DNA from: a virus
Taxonomy: Duplodnaviria; Caudoviricetes
DNA: 64,000 nucleotides
Reading direction: 5' to 3' (one strand)
IMG/VR virus record: IMGVR_UViG_3300037418_002332
The position numbers and the translations under genes are program-made. Each line of letters opens with the position of its first letter. The first letter of the stretch is position 1. The notes below the pieces were generated by a model that saw only the letters and a program-made list of their open reading frames with translations, did no database searches and had not been told where the DNA came from. Positions 24,051 through 49,502 of the stretch are shown piece by piece.

Positions 24051-24904
24051 TTAGTGCTAAAATAATTCTCGGTTCTGAGTATAACGGAAAACGCATCACA
24101 ACCTTTGAATTGACATATCCACGTTTCATTCATGCTGAATTCATGACACATCGTGTATTCAGCCGAAATGCTGCCTCATCAAGAGCAATTCCGGTTCTTA
24201 AGATGTTGAAGATGATTTGGAATGATATGGCTATGCCTATCCATTGGGGTGCTAACCAATCAGGCATGCAGGCAAAGCAAGAACTTTCTCCAATGAGAAA
24301 GTGGTTCGTTCGAAAAATTTGGCGCGGTGCAGGACGAACTGCTTTGGCTGCTGCTTGGTTAATGAATAAGTTTGGTGCGCATAAGCAAATTGTTAATCGT
24401 ATAGTTGAACCATGGTCACATATCACTGTTATCATGACTACAACTGAACTTGATAATTGGTTTGAACTTCGTGATCATCCTGATGCCCAACCTGAAATTC
24501 ATGAACTCGCAAAACAAATGCGCGAAGCAGTTCGAACATATTACTATGATAAGCTCAAGGCTGATGAATGGCATTTGCCATATGTTAAAGACTATGAAAA
24601 AGCAAAGTATTCATTGTTAAAATGTATTCAAGTGTCGGTTGCGCGTTGTGCACGTGTGTCATATCTGACTCATGATGGTCAATTGTCTTTGTTTGAAAAG
24701 GATGTTCAACTTTACGAACGTCTAGTTGGATCAGTTCCACTTCATGCATCACCAGCTGAACATCAAGCTGCTCCTGTGTTGAATGCAGGTGAGAAGAAAT
24801 ATCAAGGTAACTTTTTTGGCTGGAAACAGTTTAGAAAAATTCTTGAAGAAAAGATGGCAGGCGGTAATTCAACCCTTGTTCAAACGACGTTCGCCTATAA
24901 ATAG
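24047..24904 (+). CDS. thyX: FAD-dependent thymidylate synthase
   Basis: THRVFSRNAASSRAIP, ARCARVSY, HASPAEHQA. Confidence 0.9.
   Translation: MISAKIILGSEYNGKRITTFELTYPRFIHAEFMTHRVFSRNAASSRAIPVLKMLKMIWNDMAMPIHWGANQSGMQAKQELSPMRKWFVRKIWRGAGRTALAAAWLMNKFGAHKQIVNRIVEPWSHITVIMTTTELDNWFELRDHPDAQPEIHELAKQMREAVRTYYYDKLKADEWHLPYVKDYEKAKYSLLKCIQVSVARCARVSYLTHDGQLSLFEKDVQLYERLVGSVPLHASPAEHQAAPVLNAGEKKYQGNFFGWKQFRKILEEKMAGGNSTLVQTTFAYK
24896..24903 (+). promoter_or_regulatory. T4 late promoter
   Basis: exact TATAAATA upstream of nrdA. Confidence 0.7.
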
Positions 24905-24957: not shown

Positions 24958-27255
24958 ATGTCCATAACAATCAAGAAGCGCAGTGGCGCCGACGAAATTC
25001 TACAAATTGACAAAATCCATAAACAACTTGAATTTGCCTGCGAAGGCATTCACAATGTTTCCGTTTCAGAAATCGAGTTGAGATCGGAACTACAGTTCTA
25101 CAACAACATGACGACTGAAGAAATTCAAGAAACGTTGATTAAGACAGCTGCGGATTTGATCACTGAAGAAACACCAAATTATCAATATGTTGCTTCACGT
25201 TTGATCAACTTCGATTTGAGGAAGAAAGTTTTCGGTGATACTGAACCAAAATCAATCTACGAAATCGTAAAAGCTGGTGTTGCAGCAGGGTTCTATGAAC
25301 CTGGATTGCTAGACTGGTACACTGAATCCGAATGGGATTCTATGAATCGTATGTTGAGACATGAACGTGACTTCAACATTGTTTACGCTGGAATGGAACA
25401 ATTCAGACGAAAGTATCTCGTCAAAAATAAAATCACCGACCAATACTATGAAACACCTCAAATGGTTTACATGTTGATCGCAGCAACAGCTTTCAATATG
25501 GAAGAAAAATCAAAAAGACTAAAGCTGATCAAGGAGTTTTATAATGCAGTTAGTAATTTCGACATTGGCTTGCCTACTGCTATTTTGGCTGGAGTTAGAA
25601 CTCCTATTCGCCAGTTCTCCAATTGTACTCTTATTGACGTGGGCGATAGTCTTGATTCCATTAATGCAGCTGCATCATCTATCGTCAAATACGCTAGCAA
25701 GAGAGCTGGTATTGGTTTCAACGTTGGTCGTCTTCGTGCTATTGGGTCTCCTATTCGTAATGGAGAAGTCACCCACACCGGTGTTCTTCCCTTCATTAAG
25801 TATCTCACTGCTGCATTAAAATCATGTAATCAAGGTGGCATTCGTAATGCTTCCGCAACATGTAATTTCCCAATGTGGCACTATGAATATGAAGACTTGG
25901 TTGTTTTGAAGAATAACAAGGGTGTTGAAGAAGCACGTAATCGTTCAATTGACTATGTCATTCAAATCAATCAAGTTCTACTACAAAGATTGATTGACGG
26001 CAAAGACATTACATTGTTCTCACCATCTGATGTTCCTGATTTGTATGAAGCATTTTTCAGATCAAATGCTGAATTTGAATATCTTTACAACAAGTATGAA
26101 AAAGATAAATCAATTCGTCATCGTAAGATTTCCGCATTGGAAGCTTTCAGCCAATTGATCCTTGAGCGTAAGGAAACAGGTCGTATCTATATTCAATTTG
26201 TTGATAATACCAATGAACATGGTGCATATGATAGTTCAAAGCAAATCATTACCATGACTAACCTTTGTGTTGAAATCACTCCAATCACCAAGCCTCTTGA
26301 TGATGTGAATGATCCAAATGGTATTGTTTCACTATGTACTTTGGCTTCATACAATTTGGGTAATGTAAAGACACCATCTGACTTTGAACGTATGTCTTCA
26401 ATCTTGGTTCGCTTCCTTGATAACATTCTAACATATCAAGATTATTTGCTTCCAGCTGCGAAACATTCAACTGATCTTTACAGAAACATTGGTATTGGCT
26501 TGACCAACTTGGCATATTTCCTTGCTAAGCATAACCAAAAATATACTGATGAATCAACTACTGAGTTTCTTGCTCCGTTCTTTGAAGCATACTCATATTA
26601 CACGATCAAAGCTTCAATGGAATTGGCTAAGGAACGCGGTGCTTGCTTGGGCATCGATGATACCAAATGGAAGCAAGGGTTGACTCCGGTTGATACATAC
26701 CGCAAAACTCTTGACGAATACACCAAAAACGATTTACTTCTTGATTGGAATCAGCTAAAAAGTGATTTGAAAGAGTTTGGTGTTCGTAATGCTAATCTCA
26801 TGGCACAAATGCCTAATGAGACCAATTCTCAGGTCATTAACTCAACCAACGGCATTGAACCACCGCGTTCACTAGTTTCCGTTAAGAGTTCCAAGGATGG
26901 TGCTCTTAAGCAGGTCGTGCCTGAAATTTCAAGATTGAAGAAGCGATATGAACTTCTTTGGGATCAAAAGTCTCCCGAAGGATATCTGAAAATCTGCGGT
27001 CTTTTGACTAAGTTCATTGATCAAAGTATTTCAACAAACACTTCTTACAATCCTGAGTTCTATGAAGACAAAATCATTCCTATGTCAGTGTTGATCAAGG
27101 ATTTAATTACTGCCTATCGTATGGGTATCAAGACCTTGTACTATCACCAAGAAAATGACATGGCTGGTGAAATTGAAATCAAAGCTGAAGTTCCAATCTT
27201 TGTTGAATCAACTGATTCGTTGGAAGATGAGTTCTGCGAAAGTTGTGCCATTTAA
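24958..27255 (+). CDS. nrdA: Ribonucleotide reductase class Ia alpha
   Basis: ATP cone, FSNC, NQGGIR, TNLCVE, NSTNGIEPPR, C-terminal CESCAI. Confidence 0.97.
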   Translation: MSITIKKRSGADEILQIDKIHKQLEFACEGIHNVSVSEIELRSELQFYNNMTTEEIQETLIKTAADLITEETPNYQYVASRLINFDLRKKVFGDTEPKSIYEIVKAGVAAGFYEPGLLDWYTESEWDSMNRMLRHERDFNIVYAGMEQFRRKYLVKNKITDQYYETPQMVYMLIAATAFNMEEKSKRLKLIKEFYNAVSNFDIGLPTAILAGVRTPIRQFSNCTLIDVGDSLDSINAAASSIVKYASKRAGIGFNVGRLRAIGSPIRNGEVTHTGVLPFIKYLTAALKSCNQGGIRNASATCNFPMWHYEYEDLVVLKNNKGVEEARNRSIDYVIQINQVLLQRLIDGKDITLFSPSDVPDLYEAFFRSNAEFEYLYNKYEKDKSIRHRKISALEAFSQLILERKETGRIYIQFVDNTNEHGAYDSSKQIITMTNLCVEITPITKPLDDVNDPNGIVSLCTLASYNLGNVKTPSDFERMSSILVRFLDNILTYQDYLLPAAKHSTDLYRNIGIGLTNLAYFLAKHNQKYTDESTTEFLAPFFEAYSYYTIKASMELAKERGACLGIDDTKWKQGLTPVDTYRKTLDEYTKNDLLLDWNQLKSDLKEFGVRNANLMAQMPNETNSQVINSTNGIEPPRSLVSVKSSKDGALKQVVPEISRLKKRYELLWDQKSPEGYLKICGLLTKFIDQSISTNTSYNPEFYEDKIIPMSVLIKDLITAYRMGIKTLYYHQENDMAGEIEIKAEVPIFVESTDSLEDEFCESCAI

Positions 27256-27623
27256 TGAACAATTTCGATAAAACCCAATTGACATTGCAAATGCTCGAAA
27301 AATTTGATCGGGCAATTGCTTTGGGTGGTAAACATGTTGCCACTGAATATTTGTATTCAGGATTGGGAACCCATAATCGTGATGGCACGTTAACTAAGGA
27401 ATATGGTGGTCAAAGAACAGATGATGATCACCCTGTTCATTCTAAAAAGGTAGAACCACCTGCTGCGAAAATTTCAAATCCAATTTTCACTGTTGAAATA
27501 GAACTTGAATTGGTTCAAGATTTGAAAGCAATAAGCCATCTAAATTGGAAAGATGAATTAGCAAAGGTTCTTGGTACTGAACTGGTGGTACAATACGAAG
27601 AATGGGAAAGAAACAATCCTTAA
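27255..27623 (+). CDS. small protein ending in a major-capsid (gp23) fragment
   Basis: LELVQDLKAISHLNWKDELAKVLGTEL resembles gp23 IELAQDLRAVHGMDADAELSGILATEI (recalled). Confidence 0.65.
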   Translation: MNNFDKTQLTLQMLEKFDRAIALGGKHVATEYLYSGLGTHNRDGTLTKEYGGQRTDDDHPVHSKKVEPPAAKISNPIFTVEIELELVQDLKAISHLNWKDELAKVLGTELVVQYEEWERNNP

Positions 27624-27886: not shown

Positions 27887-28441
27887 ATGGTAATGAAACT
27901 TTATACAGCACCCGATGACATTTCGGAAACAAGAAAAATCAAGGGAAACTATGATTTCAAAGTTTTTCTTGGTGGCTCGATTGAAATGGGAAAGGCTGTT
28001 GATTGGCAAAATGAAGTGGTTGATTACTTCAAGCACCAAGACCGCTTAGTGCTCTTCAATCCTCGTCGTCCTGATTGGGACTCAACTTGGAAGCAAGACC
28101 CAACTCCCGGAACTCCATTTCATGAACAGGTGAATTGGGAACTTGATGCTCTCAATGATTCAGATTATGTTTTGTTCTATTTTGATCCAAACACCGTCAG
28201 TCCTATCACTTTGTTGGAATTGGGCATCTATTCACAACACAAAGATAAAGTTATCGTGGTCGTTTGTCCTCCCGATTATTTCAGGTATGGAAATGTTAAG
28301 ATCGTTTGTAATCGTGAACGACTCATCCACTTTACGTCATTGAAGCCTGCCTTGGAATGGCTTGGCACCGATATTCATGACGTTATCGCTTTGTCTGATC
28401 CAGACTATGAAGAAAAACAATTGAAGCCTTTGGAGAAATAA
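27887..28441 (+). CDS. nucleoside 2-deoxyribosyltransferase-like protein
   Basis: VFLGGSI..DWQ, QVNWE, SPITLLELG. Confidence 0.8.
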   Translation: MVMKLYTAPDDISETRKIKGNYDFKVFLGGSIEMGKAVDWQNEVVDYFKHQDRLVLFNPRRPDWDSTWKQDPTPGTPFHEQVNWELDALNDSDYVLFYFDPNTVSPITLLELGIYSQHKDKVIVVVCPPDYFRYGNVKIVCNRERLIHFTSLKPALEWLGTDIHDVIALSDPDYEEKQLKPLEK

Positions 28442-29556
28442 TGGAAATCAATGTTGACTACACCAAGAGAAAAATGTTTCTCAATGGTGACGTTTCAATC
28501 GCTCGTTATGATCAATTGAAATATCCAATGCTTGACACATTGGTCAAGCGTCAAAGAAGCTTCTTCTGGCAACCTGAAGAAATTCAAGATATTGGTCGTG
28601 ATAAATCCGACTTCAATCTTCTTCAACCTCATGAAAAGCACATTTTCGTTTCAAACCTTTTGAGACAAACGCTTTTGGATTCAATCCAAGGTCGAGCTCC
28701 TTCTGAAGTTTTCACTCCAATCACCTCAGTTCCTGAGGCTGAAATTTGGACGCAAACTTGGGCTTTCTCTGAAACAATCCATTCATATTCATACACTTAC
28801 ATTGTCAGAAATATTTTTGCCAATCCAAGTGAAGTGTTTGACAAAATGCCGTCCATTCAAGAAGTTGTAGATTGCGGTGTTGATATTTCCAAATTTTATG
28901 ATGAATTAGCAATTTACAATAAATTGGTTGATATTTATGGCTATGATGCAGATGTTGGCCATCACGAAATAACTCTCGATCCATTGAATGAGTATGAGCA
29001 TAAGAAACGTCTTTGGAAGTGTTTGATGTCAGTTAACATTCTTGAAGGCATCCGTTTCTATGTTTCATTTGCTTGCTCATGGGCTTTTGCCGAACGTAAG
29101 ACTATGGAAGGCAATGCAAAAATCATTAAGTTGATTGCGCGTGATGAAAATCTTCATCTGGCTTCAACACAATACATGCTTCGTGAATTGAAGAAAGAAG
29201 ATGCTGACTTTGCACAAATTGCAGAAGAAACTGAATCTGAATGTATTCAAATGTTCAATGAAGCTATTCGACAAGAAAAGGAATGGGCTGATTATCTGTT
29301 CAAAGATGGATCGATGATCGGGTTGAATGCAAACATTCTCAAGCAATACGTGGACTATATAGCAAAACAAAGAATGAAGGCTGTTGACCTACCTTGTGAA
29401 CTAGAAGTGAAAACCAACCCACTTCCATGGACAAATAAATGGATCGGTGGTAAGGAAGTACAAAATGCACCACAGGAAGTTAATATCACCAGTTATCAAG
29501 TTGGTGCTATTAAATCAGATCTTGATTCTGATTCCTTGAAAGGTTTCAAACTTTAA
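28441..29556 (+). CDS. nrdB: Ribonucleotide reductase class Ia beta
   Basis: FFWQPEEI, DSIQGR, ETIHSYSY, EGIRFYVSF, RDENLH, APQE. Confidence 0.97.
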   Translation: MEINVDYTKRKMFLNGDVSIARYDQLKYPMLDTLVKRQRSFFWQPEEIQDIGRDKSDFNLLQPHEKHIFVSNLLRQTLLDSIQGRAPSEVFTPITSVPEAEIWTQTWAFSETIHSYSYTYIVRNIFANPSEVFDKMPSIQEVVDCGVDISKFYDELAIYNKLVDIYGYDADVGHHEITLDPLNEYEHKKRLWKCLMSVNILEGIRFYVSFACSWAFAERKTMEGNAKIIKLIARDENLHLASTQYMLRELKKEDADFAQIAEETESECIQMFNEAIRQEKEWADYLFKDGSMIGLNANILKQYVDYIAKQRMKAVDLPCELEVKTNPLPWTNKWIGGKEVQNAPQEVNITSYQVGAIKSDLDSDSLKGFKL

Positions 29557-29783
29557 TGCCAACTGCAAATACAGTTTTAAATATCAAGCAATATTTTGAT
29601 GTAGAAAATTATGAACCAACTGTTATCTATGACAACAAAATCCATGTGGTCGGTAGATTAAAAAGAACTTACAATGATGTTGCATTTATCTATGCGCCAT
29701 ACATTCCATTGCAAATGGTTGGAGCACCAGCAAATACTGCAATAAAAACGGTTGGATTTAAAACGAGATACGGCATTGTCTGA
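29556..29783 (+). CDS. 75-aa protein carrying gp23 C-terminal block
   Basis: AFIYAPYIPLQMVGA...VGFKTRYGIV resembles gp23 AGIYYAPYVAL...MGFKTRYGI (recalled). Confidence 0.75.
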   Translation: MPTANTVLNIKQYFDVENYEPTVIYDNKIHVVGRLKRTYNDVAFIYAPYIPLQMVGAPANTAIKTVGFKTRYGIV

Positions 29784-30030
29784 GTGGCCAAAAGATACTA
29801 TCTATGATCCACAAATACATGTTATCGGACGAATTGAACAAAATCAATATGATCCAGTTTTGCTTGGCATAGTCAGAAGAACGTGGCCAACGTTGCTTGC
29901 TAATTCAATTATTGGATCGCAAAATATGATGAATCCTTCAGGACAAGTATTTTCACTGAGATCAAAATACAGTGGAGCAACTTCAAATACCCAAACAGTT
30001 ATAATAAAGGACGAAATAGATGGCGAGTGA
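29776..30030 (+). CDS. 84-aa protein carrying gp23 Gol-region block
   Basis: PVLLGIVRRTWPTLLANSIIGSQNMMNPSGQVFSLRSKY resembles PAVMGMVRRAIPNLIAFDICGVQPMNSPTGQVFALRAVY (recalled). Confidence 0.75.
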   Translation: MSEWPKDTIYDPQIHVIGRIEQNQYDPVLLGIVRRTWPTLLANSIIGSQNMMNPSGQVFSLRSKYSGATSNTQTVIIKDEIDGE

Positions 30031-30196
30031 TTATTACAGCAGAGAACTTAGACAAAGAGCAATTGAACTTGCAGTTATGGTAACACGAGATTCAACAACT
30101 GATATTAAAATTGTGTTGAGCGCTGCAAAAGAAATTGAAAAATACATCATGGATGGTGATGAAGAAAAAGCAAAGCTAGACCTACTAGAAGAGTAA
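30020..30196 (+). CDS. 58-aa hypothetical protein (not in ORF track)
   Basis: MASDYYSRELRQRAIELAVMV...LLEE*; fills gap before topoisomerase. Confidence 0.6.
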   Translation: MASDYYSRELRQRAIELAVMVTRDSTTDIKIVLSAAKEIEKYIMDGDEEKAKLDLLEE

Positions 30197-30198
30197 GC

Positions 30199-32061
30199 AT
30201 GACAGACGGAATTAAAAAACTTTCAGACTATGAGCACGTGAGATTGAGAACTGAGATGTATCTTGGTTCTCGTTCACCGCATACTCAAGAAATCATTTCC
30301 TACAATGAAGGTGTTCCAGTTCTAAAAGAATACACTTGGACACCAGCAGCATTCACAGCTTTCCGTGAAGTGTTGGACAACTCATTGGATGAAATAATCG
30401 GTCATGGTTTCGGCTCAAGAATCGATGTAGAGTACGATGAAGCTAATAAGATTTTTTCAGTGAAAGATAATGGTCGTGGCATTCCAATCACATGGGATGA
30501 CAAGGAAGAAATGCACAAGGCAACTTTGGTGTTGACTCATACTCGTGCAGGTCGTAACTTCGGTGAACGGCAAGAAGTTGCTGGTACAAATGGTATTGGC
30601 GCGTCGGCTGTGAATTTTTGTTCAGAATTTTTTGAAGTCACAATCAATCGTGATAACACCAAGTTCGAACAAAAATTCGTTGAAGGTGAACATGAGTTGA
30701 AAATTGATCCGCCTAAGATGCGTGAAGTGAAAAGTGATGCATCAGGCACCGCAATTCGCTTTAAACTTTCATCAAAGGTGTTCAGTTCAATTCTACTTCC
30801 ACTGGAATTCATACGTGATCGCCTTTATGAAGTTGCTGTATTCAATCCTCAGTTGACTGTTTACTTCAACAAGGAAAAGATCAAGGTTGGTGCGACGATT
30901 GAACGTTCCCTTTTCAACAAGGAAAAGGTGATCAAATTTGATATCAACGAAGATGGTTTCCGTTCAACTTTCTTTGTCAAACCAAATTTCCAATTGAATT
31001 CATCTGAATATATGTTCTCGTTCGTGAACAACGTTCCAGCTTTCAATGGTGGAACTCATATGGATACATTTCGTCGTCAATTCATTTCAGGTGTTTTGGA
31101 TGCTTTGACTCGCGAAGGCAAGAAACGTAAATTGACTCCAAATCGATCTGATGTCAATGAAGGTTTGTTGATTCTAAATCACACAAAGATGAGAGCGCCG
31201 AACTTCGACAGTCAGTCCAAAACTCGTTTGATTAACGAAGAACCTGCAAAGATCATCACAGCTGCAATTGATGCTAAGGAAATCGCTAAGATGCTCCGTA
31301 AGCATGAAGATTGGGTTGAACAAATCTTTGAACGTTGCGCATTCCGTACAAACAAGCAAGACCAAAAGGATTTGGAAAAGGAATCAAAGAAGCTTTCACG
31401 TCGAAAAATTCCAAAACTTCGTGACGCAACCTCAAGTAATCGTCAAGATTGTATCTTGTTGCTAGCTGAGGGAGATTCAGCTATCTCCGGTTCAGCTGCG
31501 GTTCGCGATCCAAAAATCCATGCTGGATTGCCATTGCGCGGTAAAGTTCTAAACGTCAATGGTGAGTCACCAAAAACCGTCATTGACAATAAAGAACTGG
31601 CTGATATCATGTCTGCAATAGGCTTGGCCATCGGCAAAAAAGCAGTGAGAGATGATTTGCGATATGGTAGAATTTATTTGGCCCATGACGCTGATCCTGA
31701 CGGTGCAAACATCGGTGCTTTATTGGTGAATTTTTTCCATACATTTTGGCCTGAACTATTTACCGATGAAAAGAATCCATTTATAAGTGTATTCATGACT
31801 CCGTTCATCATTGCTCAAAAAGGCAAGGAACGTCGTTATTGGTATTCAGATAATTATGCTGAATTCAAGCCTGAAGATTATAAAGGCTGGTCAATCACCA
31901 GAGCCAAGGGTCTTGGTACTCTTGAAGAACCCGATTGGGAACATTCTCTGAAGTCACCAAAACTTTTCCATATAGTTGATGACGGTAAGATGAAAGAAGC
32001 TTTGGATTTGATTTTCAATGGTTCAAAGGCTGACGATCGGAAATTGTGGATGGGAATTTAG
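30199..32061 (+). CDS. gp39: Type II topoisomerase large subunit (gp39+60 fused)
   Basis: HVRLRTEMYLGS, DNGRGIP, GTNGIGAS, AEGDSA, PLRGKVLN, DADPDG, KGLG. Confidence 0.96.
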   Translation: MTDGIKKLSDYEHVRLRTEMYLGSRSPHTQEIISYNEGVPVLKEYTWTPAAFTAFREVLDNSLDEIIGHGFGSRIDVEYDEANKIFSVKDNGRGIPITWDDKEEMHKATLVLTHTRAGRNFGERQEVAGTNGIGASAVNFCSEFFEVTINRDNTKFEQKFVEGEHELKIDPPKMREVKSDASGTAIRFKLSSKVFSSILLPLEFIRDRLYEVAVFNPQLTVYFNKEKIKVGATIERSLFNKEKVIKFDINEDGFRSTFFVKPNFQLNSSEYMFSFVNNVPAFNGGTHMDTFRRQFISGVLDALTREGKKRKLTPNRSDVNEGLLILNHTKMRAPNFDSQSKTRLINEEPAKIITAAIDAKEIAKMLRKHEDWVEQIFERCAFRTNKQDQKDLEKESKKLSRRKIPKLRDATSSNRQDCILLLAEGDSAISGSAAVRDPKIHAGLPLRGKVLNVNGESPKTVIDNKELADIMSAIGLAIGKKAVRDDLRYGRIYLAHDADPDGANIGALLVNFFHTFWPELFTDEKNPFISVFMTPFIIAQKGKERRYWYSDNYAEFKPEDYKGWSITRAKGLGTLEEPDWEHSLKSPKLFHIVDDGKMKEALDLIFNGSKADDRKLWMGI

Positions 32062-41301: not shown

Positions 41302-41858
41302 GTTACGGAAATGTAACCGTTTTCGCTGGACCAATGTTCTGCGGAAAAACATCACATTTGCTACAACAATACATCTGGAAAAATCACGCCAAAGATTACT
41401 CGCTTCTAATCAAACCTGCTTTTGATGATCGTTATTCAATGACGGAAGTCGTTACGCATCTTGGATTGAAAGCAACTGCTGCAAATATTACAGATGCGGC
41501 AAGGATCATGGATTATTTCCAAAACGATCAATATCGAAACTTGATGATCGATGAATGTCAATTTTTCACTGCACCGCACGTTCGCGGTGACATTTTTCCA
41601 TATCTGAAACTGCTTCTCAATCGCGGTGTCAATATATACGCATCGGGACTTGATATGGATTGGATGGGCGAACCATTCGAAGTTACGGCAAAGCTTTTGG
41701 CTATGGCAGATAACGTCCATAAGCTCAAATCAGTTTGTAATTATTCAGGCAAAGAAGCCTCAAAGACATATAAAAAGAGCTTATCTGGTGGATCAGTGGA
41801 ACTTGGTGAAACTGATAAATATGAAGCCAGAAATAACGAATTTTGGAGATACGAATGA
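41298..41858 (+). CDS. tk: Thymidine kinase
   Basis: GPMFCGKT, IDECQFF, GLDMDW.GEPF, KYEA. Confidence 0.93.
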   Translation: MSYGNVTVFAGPMFCGKTSHLLQQYIWKNHAKDYSLLIKPAFDDRYSMTEVVTHLGLKATAANITDAARIMDYFQNDQYRNLMIDECQFFTAPHVRGDIFPYLKLLLNRGVNIYASGLDMDWMGEPFEVTAKLLAMADNVHKLKSVCNYSGKEASKTYKKSLSGGSVELGETDKYEARNNEFWRYE

Positions 41859-42193
41859 CCAACTTTACAAAAGAAGAAACATTGGGTGCTATCAAATGGT
41901 TTCTTCTTGATTTGACAAGAGAACAATTTGCTGAATTCAATGATAAGGAAACAAGATCAAAATTCGTTGAAGTGACAAATGAGTTTTTGGAACGTATGAA
42001 GTTTCATGAAATGATTGAAAACTATATTGTTATTTGCGATGAAACAAATAACACAGAACCTCAAATTGATGCAAATGAATTTAGATCATCGACTTATTTG
42101 AAATTTTCAAACGATCCGGAATTTACATGTTTGAATACTGTGTATGCAAGAACTGGAATTGAATTGGAGCATATAAAGGGGATGATGCCTTGA
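41855..42193 (+). CDS. stand-alone tail-sheath (gp18) C-terminal domain
   Basis: EFNDKETRSKF...YIVICDETNNTEPQIDANEF...LNTVYARTG resembles gp18 C-terminus (recalled). Confidence 0.8.
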   Translation: MTNFTKEETLGAIKWFLLDLTREQFAEFNDKETRSKFVEVTNEFLERMKFHEMIENYIVICDETNNTEPQIDANEFRSSTYLKFSNDPEFTCLNTVYARTGIELEHIKGMMP

Positions 42194-42522
42194 CATATGG
42201 ACAAGCTCTTGCCATAGACGTAAAATTACATTTATCTTTGGAATGGAATAAGCTATTCTTAGCTGAAAATTCCTCAGTAAATAGGGCGATTGTAACCTCA
42301 ACAGCCTGTTCCGTCCTTGATGGAATGGTGATGACTGATGACATTTATGATTTCAAGGTTGTTTGTGATCAAACGAACAATCTGCCTGGCGAAGATAAAA
42401 TCATTGTTGATGTTTATGTGAAACCGAAAAAAGTTGTGCAGTTTGTACATATGTCATGTGTCCTACCTGCTGATGATGGGTATATAATGGGAAGAAAAGT
42501 ATGCAGCAAGAGAGACTTGTAG
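42190..42522 (+). CDS. second stand-alone tail-sheath C-terminal domain
   Basis: IYDFKVVCDQTNN...VDVYVKPKKVVQFV. Confidence 0.75.
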   Translation: MTYGQALAIDVKLHLSLEWNKLFLAENSSVNRAIVTSTACSVLDGMVMTDDIYDFKVVCDQTNNLPGEDKIIVDVYVKPKKVVQFVHMSCVLPADDGYIMGRKVCSKRDL

Positions 42523-48178: not shown

Positions 48179-48802
48179 ATGACCGCCGCATTTACTGAGA
48201 TTCAGACTGCGACTGGTGAATTTTTTGATTATGCGCATTTTTCTGAAACCGATATCCATGAAGAAGATATCGCCCATGCTTTGAGTATGATTTGCAGATT
48301 CAATGGACACTGCTTGAAATTTTACTCAGTAGCAAAGCACCTTTGTTTGGTGCATGATTTGATGGAGTACGATCGTGTCGAAATGAAAAAACCATTGACA
48401 CGTGAAGATGTTTTCCACGGACTAATTCATGATGTTGGTGAAGCATATCTCACCGATATTCCAAGACCATTGAAGAATTACTTTACACAAAGCACTGAAT
48501 TCACTGCTTTCATGGATGACTACATCGATATTGAAAATAGAATCATTGAAGGCTTTGCGCGCAAATATCCATATGGTAAACATGCGCCTCATGCGGCAAC
48601 TGTGAAATACTATGACACATGGGCTTTGTTGCTTGAACAAAAATATCTGATGACCAAAACAAAGAAGGAATGGTCAATAAGTATTGCTGATTATCCTGAT
48701 GAACCTCATTTCGTTAAAGGCATGATGAATCCATTTTTGTATGAAAAAGATTGGGCACGTGAGTTCATGAATAGATTGGAATATTACAATGAAGTTGCTT
48801 GA
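48179..48802 (+). CDS. HD-domain 5'-deoxynucleotidase (YfbR-like)
   Basis: EDIAHALSMICRFNGH, YSVAKH, LIHDVGEAYLTDIPRPLK. Confidence 0.88.
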   Translation: MTAAFTEIQTATGEFFDYAHFSETDIHEEDIAHALSMICRFNGHCLKFYSVAKHLCLVHDLMEYDRVEMKKPLTREDVFHGLIHDVGEAYLTDIPRPLKNYFTQSTEFTAFMDDYIDIENRIIEGFARKYPYGKHAPHAATVKYYDTWALLLEQKYLMTKTKKEWSISIADYPDEPHFVKGMMNPFLYEKDWAREFMNRLEYYNEVA

Positions 48803-49502
48803 CAAAGTCAAGAAATTTTTCAAGAACACTTTTCCTGAGGTCAAAATCGATCCTGAAGTTCAATCAATGGTTGATTTGGGATTGATTTCACCAACACAAG
48901 CCTCGAATGTAACGCAGGTTCCGTTTCAAATTCAAAAGATTCAAGTGACTGCTAAATCAAGAACAATGGTTGCTCAATGGAACCATGAACCTGATTTATC
49001 TGATGAATGGTATTCTGAACGATACAATTTAGATTTTAGCGAATGTCCACAATGGAACAAAGAAATTTATGCAACTGTCTACGATCACTTCGCTGATACA
49101 CAAACTTCCATGTATCCTGTAACATTGACTCGTGAGCTTCCACGTGGATCAGGCAAATCAACCTTTTTCAGAAAGTTGATTGAGAATCTCTACGAAGCCA
49201 TGAGAAATGATCCGAAGTTGATGGTGAATAAAGTTGTTTACATTGGAGCAAATACGACTCAATGCAGAGAATTTTGCAAGTATTTTCTGCAAACCCAAAC
49301 TAACAACTTTCATCAAACAGGATTTTTGGTTTGGACTGCAAATTTGGCTCAAGCTTTGGATAATTCAAAGCTTTATCCGGCTGGCAAAAACATTCTCTAT
49401 ATTTTGGATGATGCTCTCGATGATCCAAATAGCTTCACCACTCAATCAATTAAAGACCGTCATGATAAAGTTATGATAGTCAAACTTTACACACCAAGAT
49501 AA
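48789..49502 (+). CDS. chimera: gp23 fragment plus terminase-like P-loop remnant
   Basis: PFQIQKIQVTAKSRTMVAQW; ELPRGSGKST; YILDD. Confidence 0.55.
   Translation: MKLLDKVKKFFKNTFPEVKIDPEVQSMVDLGLISPTQASNVTQVPFQIQKIQVTAKSRTMVAQWNHEPDLSDEWYSERYNLDFSECPQWNKEIYATVYDHFADTQTSMYPVTLTRELPRGSGKSTFFRKLIENLYEAMRNDPKLMVNKVVYIGANTTQCREFCKYFLQTQTNNFHQTGFLVWTANLAQALDNSKLYPAGKNILYILDDALDDPNSFTTQSIKDRHDKVMIVKLYTPR

What the first reader, a model, noticed from the sequence alone, without database searches (positions are those of the whole stretch)
29776..30030. Free-standing Gol-peptide homologue
VLLGIVRRTWPTLLANSIIGSQNMMNPSG (within 29848-29970) aligns without gaps to the T4 gp23 Gol peptide AVMGMVRRAIPNLIAFDICGVQPMNSPTG and continues QVFSLRSKY vs QVFALRAVY. 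Gol binds EF-Tu and activates the Lit protease. An 84-aa protein built around this epitope could titrate Lit-like sensors or modulate EF-Tu.
Basis: partly seen in the sequence, partly recalled or inferred. Interest (0 to 1): 0.85.

Follow-up and report, generated by a model that had tools for sequence, protein, structure and literature searches.

The report
Detached capsid "Gol" segment mini-gene
A soil T4-like phage carries, among its early DNA-metabolism genes, a small gene that encodes only the most conserved stretch of the major capsid protein (the stretch that in T4 binds EF-Tu and triggers the Lit defence); it belongs to a large family of such detached capsid pieces that I found in no paper and whose partner is still unknown.

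Summary
ORF 29776-30030 (84 aa; open from 29746) aligns without gaps to T4 gp23 residues 89-132, the Gol region (21/44 identical; Pfam Gp23 45.6 bits, E 8e-12). The rest of the capsid protein is absent.

It is not an isolated oddity.
- The overlapping upstream ORF1 (29556-29783) carries a C-terminal gp23 block and shares a 34-aa leader with ORF2.
- Two more ORFs in the window carry weak spine-helix blocks.
- In public data I found more than 100 clusters of small proteins that are a Gol module plus an unrelated carrier domain.
- In other T4-like contigs the same three gp23 blocks sit in adjacent mini-genes. L105 has a Gol gene next to a C-terminal-block gene between frd and td.
- The free modules keep the same conserved columns as real capsids. 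ORF2 scores as the free type, not the capsid type.

The function is not shown. My best guess is an early-made mimic of unassembled capsid protein that intercepts a host factor recognising this segment, such as EF-Tu with a Lit-type protease or another capsid sensor.

ORF2 itself is a divergent, carrier-less member. It has a TTG start and weak codon bias, so decay cannot be excluded.

This scan found the same kind of family earlier on other DNA (e1-5364952, e1-5342552, e1-4035659).

The parts
29776..30030 (+). ORF2, 84 aa from TTG (alternative TTG at 29752 gives 92 aa): detached Gol-region gene
   Evidence: Pfam Gp23 45.6 bits. The same 92-aa protein is on record from 4 contigs.
29842..29973 (+). 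Gol-homologous core (ORF2 residues 31-74 of the 92-aa form), equivalent to T4 gp23 residues 89-132
   Evidence: Gapless alignment. AF2 predicts one confident helix here (model residues 27-46, pLDDT 81-88) and little else.
29556..29783 (+). ORF1, 75 aa. Its ATG overlaps the nrdB stop (TAATG). It carries a C-terminal gp23 block (Pfam profile 301-349; my profile 356-405).
   Evidence: (30.3 bits, E 3.7e-7)
29577..29678 (+). Leader of ORF1, paralogous to the leader of ORF2 (29752-29853); shared motif IYDxxIHVxGR
   Evidence: blastp 32% identity over 34 aa, E 3e-6. No other copy in the window.
29776..29783 (+). Overlap of the ORF2 start (TTG) with the ORF1 stop (TGA). This suggests translational coupling; there is no clear Shine-Dalgarno sequence.
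   Evidence: Sequence. Coupling is an inference.
30020..30196 (+). ORF3, 58 aa, unknown function. Its ATG overlaps the end of ORF2 by 11 nt, and gp39 starts 3 nt after its stop.
   Evidence: codon log-odds typical of genes in this window
27243..27623 (+). 126-aa ORF whose C-terminus weakly matches the gp23 spine-helix block (my profile 206-234)
   Evidence: Pfam E 0.016; own profile E 6e-4
48789..49502 (+). 237-aa ORF with a weak match to the adjoining gp23 block (my profile 177-207)
   Evidence: Pfam E 0.016; own profile E 6e-4

Best explanation
ORF2 is a divergent, carrier-less member of a large undescribed family of small phage proteins. Each consists of a detached copy of the Gol segment of the T4-type major capsid protein, usually joined to a small unrelated carrier domain. 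ORF2 lies in the nrdA-nrdB-gp39 block, which is early or middle by analogy with T4. It is probably translated by coupling to ORF1, so the peptide would be present before the real capsid protein is made. The module is mostly unstructured (one amphipathic helix plus an extended stretch) and keeps the residues that are conserved in real capsids. I therefore read it as a molecular mimic of unassembled capsid protein. It would occupy a host factor that recognises this segment and so blunt capsid-triggered abortive infection. Candidate factors are EF-Tu together with a Lit-type protease, or another capsid-sensing immune receptor. Shown here: the homology, the existence and conservation of the family, the recurrent pairing with other capsid-block mini-genes, and the genomic position. 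Inferred: expression, timing, binding partner and effect on defence.
For: Homology to the Gol region.

Family evidence:
- A search of 1.84 billion representatives gave complete small proteins with only this segment. Their genes lie inside arrays of small overlapping genes of T4-like contigs.
- A profile of the 'Gol + domain X' form found 2556 proteins at E<=1e-3, with more than 100 full-coverage clusters, on contigs up to 374 kb.
- The free modules keep the same conserved columns as capsids.
- ORF2 keeps 8 of 10 columns that are at least 80% conserved. 18% of free members miss as many.
- ORF2 scores 4.4 bits higher on the free-module profile than on the capsid profile. In cross-validation free modules average +7.4, while capsid-type sequences average -12.5 and only 3.6% of them are above 0.
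- Its closest hit is a free-standing protein, P0007, at 60% identity.

The same three gp23 blocks recur as neighbouring mini-genes elsewhere. L103 and L104 have Gol plus spine helix. L105 has Gol plus the C-terminal block, between frd and td. L183 has DHFR, a Gol gene, a sister gene on the same carrier, then ThyA.

The N-carrier forms end in acidic tails, as ORF2 does.

Genes are tightly packed with overlapping stops and starts from nrdB to gp39. There is no late-promoter motif nearby.

The Gol segment has low fold confidence in both models. In the ORF2 model only one helix is confident. This fits a binding peptide.

Literature: the Gol peptide binds EF-Tu and enables Lit (PMC3014915). Several immune receptor families sense major capsid proteins, one of them incorporating EF-Tu (bioRxiv 10.64898/2026.01.04.697583).
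Against: No expression data exist and no RNA run holds the sequence. ORF2 has only TTG starts and no clear ribosome-binding site. One gene caller left it uncalled. Its codon log-odds (0.19/0.15 bits per codon) lie below the 5th percentile of 84-codon windows taken from the window's long genes (0.35), although its frame is the best of the three. Two near-invariant residues of the GVQPM motif are changed, V to S and P to N. ORF2 lacks the carrier domain seen in most family members. No orthologue could be found to test selection on this copy. In T4 a free Gol peptide activates Lit, so a decoy would have to bind without activating. Tat-type signals on some family members do not fit a cytoplasmic partner.
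Confidence: 0.45

Rival explanations
1. This copy is a decaying remnant. ORF1 and ORF2 would be leftovers of a rearranged capsid-block gene pair that lost its carrier domains and is no longer expressed or useful in this phage, even though the family is functional elsewhere.
For: TTG start and no clear ribosome-binding site. Codon signal lower than in all other tested genes of the window. Two changes in the near-invariant GVQPM motif. No carrier domain. Not called as a gene on some contigs. No orthologues found.
Against: A 92-codon open frame is unlikely by chance in 38% GC DNA (my own rough estimate, about 0.002). 8 of 10 conserved columns are kept and the profile score lies inside the family range. 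ORF2 has the free-module signature. Packing is exact, with overlaps on both sides. ORF1 has normal codon usage and an ATG coupled to nrdB.
Confidence: 0.2
2. The module acts on capsid protein rather than on the host. It would bind folding or assembly intermediates of gp23, the chaperonin or the scaffold. The effect could be to delay premature self-assembly, or to poison the capsids of co-infecting T4-like competitors.
For: The detached pieces are three conserved blocks of gp23: the Gol segment, the spine helix and the C-terminal strands. By my recollection of the HK97 fold (not tested here) these belong to its conserved core and could complement or compete with one another. The Gol and C-terminal blocks are encoded side by side twice, independently: in this window and in L105. 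Conserved columns are identical to those of capsids.
Against: The pieces would also interfere with the phage's own capsid. Their position is among early genes, not with the head genes. Detached sheath and (per earlier notes) portal pieces would need parallel explanations.
Confidence: 0.2
3. The module is a translation modulator. It would bind EF-Tu-GDP as the T4 Gol peptide does and tune host or phage translation, independently of any defence system.
For: Per the literature, Gol binds EF-Tu domains II-III, prefers the GDP form and inhibits its GTPase. [quoted passage not shown]
Against: This explains only the Gol piece, not the other detached capsid and sheath blocks. Tat-signal forms would leave the cytoplasm. 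EF-Tu is extremely abundant, so stoichiometric titration by a small early protein is hard to picture.
Confidence: 0.1
4. ORF1 and ORF2 are made as one protein by a +1 frameshift, or act as an obligate heterodimer. Together they would rebuild a miniature capsid P-domain sheet from its N- and C-terminal strands.
For: The ORFs overlap by about 38 nt of doubly open sequence. They share a leader. The same two blocks are adjacent in L105.
Against: I saw no recognisable +1 slippery site in the overlap. In L105 the two genes are separate, each with its own carrier and ATG. No structural test was possible.
Confidence: 0.05

Closest known systems
Gol peptide of T4 gp23 (residues about 93-122) in the e14 Lit / EF-Tu exclusion system
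   Same: Homologous sequence with a gapless alignment. It is the same most-conserved segment of the capsid protein.
   Different: In T4 it is part of the 521-aa late capsid protein. Here it is a separate 84-aa product in an early-type gene block. EF-Tu binding and Lit activation were not shown. Two residues of the GVQPM core differ.
Full-length T4-type major capsid protein (Pfam PF07068 Gp23, HK97 fold)
   Same: Significant domain-level match above the Pfam cut-off.
   Different: Only profile positions 3-48 of 376 are present. There is no E-loop return, spine helix or A domain, so it cannot form a capsid subunit.
Free-standing 'Gol module + carrier domain' proteins of uncultured T4-like phages
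   Same: Small size, only the Gol block of gp23, the same conserved columns, the free-type sequence signature, an acidic tail, a position among early genes, and a sister gene carrying another capsid block.
   Different: ORF2 lacks the roughly 80-aa carrier domain X. Instead it has a 23-31 aa leader shared only with ORF1. It has a TTG start.
Phage anti-defence mimics and decoys in general (for example DNA-mimic proteins such as Ocr; from general knowledge)
   Same: The proposed logic is the same: an early small protein that imitates the molecule a host factor recognises.
   Different: Here the imitated molecule would be the phage's own capsid protein. No such self-epitope decoy turned up in my searches of the held paper library.

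Membership tests
Major capsid protein Gp23 (PF07068) | Sequence match to the family profile above the curated cut-off | tested here: met
   45.6 bits against a cut-off of 24.4, E 8.4e-12
Major capsid protein Gp23 (PF07068) | Complete HK97-type subunit of about 400-520 aa covering most of the profile | tested here: not met
   Only profile positions 3-48 of 376 are matched in an 84-92 aa product
T4 Gol peptide (functional sense) | Homology to gp23 residues 93-122 | tested here: met
   Gapless alignment to gp23 89-132, 13/29 identical in the 29-mer
T4 Gol peptide (functional sense) | Binds EF-Tu (domains II-III) | not testable with these tools
   Needs a binding experiment. Literature basis: PMC3014915.
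T4 Gol peptide (functional sense) | Enables Lit protease to cleave EF-Tu | not testable with these tools
   Needs co-expression with Lit in E. coli
Free-standing Gol-module proteins (undescribed family) | Small protein in which the Gol block is the only large gp23 block | tested here: met
   My gp23 profile matches positions 59-116 only
Free-standing Gol-module proteins (undescribed family) | Keeps the conserved columns of the module (R, P, A, G-V-Q-P-M, P, F) | tested here: met
   8 of 10 kept; V to S and P to N differ; within the family range
Free-standing Gol-module proteins (undescribed family) | Sequence signature of free modules rather than of capsid genes | tested here: met
   +4.4 bits for the free profile. 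Only 3.6% of capsid-type sequences score above 0.
Free-standing Gol-module proteins (undescribed family) | Carrier domain X, N- or C-terminal to the module | tested here: not met
   No domain X match in ORF2 or elsewhere in the window. The leader is not significantly like N-terminal carriers.
Free-standing Gol-module proteins (undescribed family) | Located among early or nucleotide-metabolism genes, next to a sister gene with another capsid block | tested here: met
   Here: nrdB-ORF1-ORF2-ORF3-gp39. Compare frd-Gol-Cterm-td in L105.

The most novel reading that the evidence does not exclude
T4-like jumbo phages encode a 'self-epitope display' repertoire. These would be families of early mini-proteins that each present one conserved block of a virion protein, bare or on a small carrier domain. 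Blocks seen so far are the capsid Gol segment, the capsid spine helix, the capsid C-terminal strands and the sheath C-domain, plus portal pieces according to earlier notes. Their role would be to occupy bacterial pattern-recognition receptors before the real structural proteins appear. ORF1 and ORF2 would be a minimal, carrier-less pair of this system.
Probability: 0.3. Interest if true: 0.9.

Novelty: new variant of a known kind. Interest (0 to 1): 0.62.

Why it matters
Bacterial immune receptors are now known to sense the conserved core of phage structural proteins, including the major capsid protein. How phages answer this, other than by point mutation, is largely open. A widespread family of early genes that encode only the most conserved capsid segments would be a direct candidate for such an answer. 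Alternatively it could be a new layer of capsid-assembly or translation control. The Gol segment is the one capsid peptide with a known host partner (EF-Tu) and a known defence (Lit). The idea can therefore be tested at once in E. coli with synthetic genes. This particular copy adds a minimal form with no carrier, paired with a C-terminal capsid block.

Tried and rejected
- Complex prediction of E. coli EF-Tu with ORF2 returned 'no answer' (score 0.00). This is neither support nor evidence against binding.
- No RNA holder was listed for the stretch.
- Contigs from four soil and rhizosphere runs were identical, so they gave no population variation for a selection test.
- Searches for small-protein homologues by shared words found only the protein itself.
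- No relative of ORF2 was found in IMG/VR or JGI metagenomes by peptide patterns.
- The nearest phages by NrdB (at most 59% identity) and gp39 (at most 63%) have no capsid fragment at the corresponding place and show different synteny.
- Cultured phages gave hits only in real capsid genes. Agrobacterium phage Atu_ph07, which has proteins with the domain X fold, has only its real capsid gene.
- Domain X has no informative fold match. PDB Foldseek gave nothing. VIA gave Z of at most 4.2, to generic alpha/beta domains. AFDB and BFVD gave only uncharacterised small phage proteins.
- The idea that the ORF1/ORF2 leader is a vestige of the N-terminal carrier was not supported.
- Rfam found no family at or above its gathering score, and there are no notable repeats flanking the pair.
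- The promoter and terminator scan showed nothing specific.
- P0004, a 952-aa protein with eight matched stretches, is a spurious repeat-peptide match.
- pS and pN between the two leaders are both near saturation and are uninformative.

Full report
**Setting**

The window is the replication and nucleotide-metabolism module of a T4-like phage. It holds family-B DNA polymerase, UvsX, a gp41-type helicase, NrdA, NrdB and both topoisomerase II subunits. GC content is about 38%. The same proteins are on record from contigs of up to 250 kb. The sequence occurs in soil and rhizosphere metagenome runs. No whole genome is held for it. No full capsid gene lies in the window.

**The observation**

Four units lie between nrdB (28441-29556) and the gp39 topoisomerase gene (30199-32061), with no spacer.
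- ORF1 is at 29556-29783. Its ATG overlaps the nrdB stop as TAATG.
- ORF2 has a frame open from 29746, with TTG codons at 29752 and 29776 and a stop at 30028-30030.
- ORF3 is at 30020-30196, and gp39 starts 3 nt after it.

ORF2 matches Pfam Gp23 at profile positions 3-48 of 376 (45.6 bits, E 8.4e-12). It aligns without gaps to T4 gp23 residues 89-132, with 13/29 identities in the Gol 29-mer and 21/44 overall.

ORF1 matches the C-terminal part of the same profile at positions 301-349 (30.3 bits). The first 34 residues of the two products are paralogous (32% identity, E 3e-6). A gp23 profile that I built from 21 full-length hits finds two further weak pieces in the window, both from the spine-helix region. 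One is at 27231-27620 (profile 206-234) and the other at 48771-49499 (profile 177-207), each with E about 6e-4. Pfam gives E 0.016 for both.

The frame change between ORF1 and ORF2 is not an assembly error. Contigs from other runs bridge it with no difference.

**Is it a lone remnant or a member of something?**

Word-based searches for small homologues found only the protein itself. An exhaustive phmmer search of 1.84 billion cluster representatives gave 189 hits, all at the Gol segment. Besides real capsid proteins and truncated capsid genes, these include many complete small proteins in which the Gol segment is the only capsid part. Three forms stand out.

- Form 1 has the Gol module at the N-terminus followed by an unrelated domain of about 80 aa, which I call domain X. 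A profile of five such proteins retrieved 2556 proteins at E<=1e-3. More than 100 of these are clusters covering the full length, on contigs of up to 374 kb, and all are named 'hypothetical'.
- Form 2 has a carrier at the N-terminus, then the Gol module, then a short acidic tail (P0014, P0260, P0265, P0145 and others).
- Form 3 has a Tat-type RRxFL signal followed by the module (P0093, P0115, P0117, P0152).

The genes are complete. They lie in arrays of small overlapping genes of T4-like contigs. In one contig the resident capsid protein has its own Gol region, only 49% identical to the mini-gene. The modules are therefore old paralogues, not fresh copies.

AF2 folds domain X with high confidence but leaves the Gol part at pLDDT 53-58. 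Domain X resembles only uncharacterised small phage proteins and generic alpha/beta domains. Neighbouring small genes often carry the C-terminal half of domain X as well.

**Where ORF2 stands in the family**

The conserved columns of the module are the same in capsids and in free modules. ORF2 keeps 8 of the 10 columns that are at least 80% conserved. It differs in the GVQPM motif, reading GSQNM. 18% of free members miss two or more columns.

ORF2 scores 72.3 bits on a profile of free modules and 67.9 on a profile of capsid-type sequences. In five-fold cross-validation free modules average +7.4 bits, and 79% are above 0. Capsid-type sequences average -12.5, and 3.6% are above 0. Its closest hit is the free-standing P0007, at 60% identity over the module, with a shared WP.LLA.SIIG motif.

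ORF2 lacks domain X. Its leader is not significantly similar to the N-terminal carriers. AF2 predicts one confident helix (model residues 27-46, pLDDT 81-88) and nothing compact.

**A recurrent design**

I scanned IMG/VR with the family alignment and searched the 80 loci it returned with the gp23 profile. This showed the same three blocks detached in adjacent mini-genes.
- L103 and L104 have a Gol gene followed by a spine-helix gene (profile 186-246), both on domain X.
- L105 has a Gol gene (identical to P0265) overlapping a gene with the C-terminal block. That block covers profile 358-407 (Pfam 33.2 bits), the same block as ORF1.
- The L105 pair lies between frd and td.
- L183 has DHFR, a Gol gene, a sister gene on the same carrier with a different cargo, then thymidylate synthase.

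The pairing of a Gol gene with a C-terminal-block gene inside a nucleotide-metabolism cluster has therefore arisen or been kept in at least two unrelated T4-like lineages. First readers' notes on this genome listed the other capsid pieces and two sheath C-domain mini-ORFs. I confirmed the sheath matches (E 8.7e-7 and 0.033). Earlier follow-up reports of this scan describe the same kind of family on three other genomes.

**What it most likely does**

This part is inference. The position in an nrd-topoisomerase block without a late-promoter motif suggests early or middle expression, by analogy with T4. The TTG at 29776 lies 5 nt before the ORF1 stop, which suggests termination-reinitiation coupling.

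A mostly disordered peptide that keeps the capsid's conserved residues outside the capsid context is best explained by selection to look like the capsid segment to some partner. In T4 the known partner is EF-Tu. Binding lets the Lit protease cut EF-Tu and abort infection (PMC3014915). Several immune receptor families are now reported to sense major capsid proteins, one of them incorporating EF-Tu (bioRxiv 10.64898/2026.01.04.697583).

Other capsid blocks and sheath domains are detached in the same manner, so I favour a general mimic or decoy role over an EF-Tu-specific one. An action on capsid folding or assembly, of the phage itself or of a competitor, remains a serious rival.

For this particular copy, decay cannot be excluded. 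It has a TTG start and no clear ribosome-binding site. Its codon log-odds lie below the 5th percentile of windows from the window's long genes, although its frame is the best of the three. It has two changed core residues and no carrier, and one gene caller did not call it.

**Novelty**

Searches of the held paper library found no description of detached Gol or capsid-block genes. Cultured phages in the held collection show the segment only inside real capsid genes. The family is new to the literature as far as I could search, but it was seen before in this scan on other DNA. ORF2 is a new, minimal variant of it.

**Limits**

There are no expression data, no orthologues of this copy and no access to the phage's own capsid gene. 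The one complex prediction gave no answer. No coordinates were available to test whether the three blocks touch in the capsid fold.

Noticed in passing
window 41843-42193 and 42190-42522: Two adjacent small ORFs (116 and 110 aa) match the tail-sheath C-terminal domain (PF17482; E 8.7e-7 and 0.033). They are detached pieces of another virion protein in a non-structural region, parallel to the capsid pieces.
   Followed up: partly
window 27243-27623 and 48789-49502: Two ORFs carry weak matches to adjoining spine-helix blocks of gp23 (my profile 206-234 and 177-207; E about 6e-4). They lie 21 kb apart and each is fused to unrelated sequence.
   Followed up: partly
proteins P0093, P0115, P0117, P0152, P0005: Some free Gol modules start with a twin-arginine (RRxFL) signal-like sequence. 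This suggests export or membrane targeting of a capsid peptide. No current explanation accounts for it.
   Followed up: no
L088 44-453 and 1408-1620; L131 and L104 neighbours: Genes next to 'Gol + domain X' genes carry the C-terminal half of domain X without a capsid piece. Domain X therefore forms paralogous arrays of small phage proteins. The same fold appears in uncharacterised proteins of Agrobacterium phage Atu_ph07.
   Followed up: partly
L183 3117-3605: The sister gene of a Gol gene has the same N-terminal carrier but a Gly/Ser/Thr-rich cargo unrelated to gp23. It may be a piece of another virion protein.
   Followed up: no
window 24896-24903: One of only two exact T4 late-promoter motifs (TATAAATA) in the window lies just upstream of nrdA (start 24958). 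The count is no more than chance expects.
   Followed up: no
window 30020-30196: A 58-aa ORF with good codon usage and a good ribosome-binding site overlaps the end of ORF2. It has no family match.
   Followed up: partly
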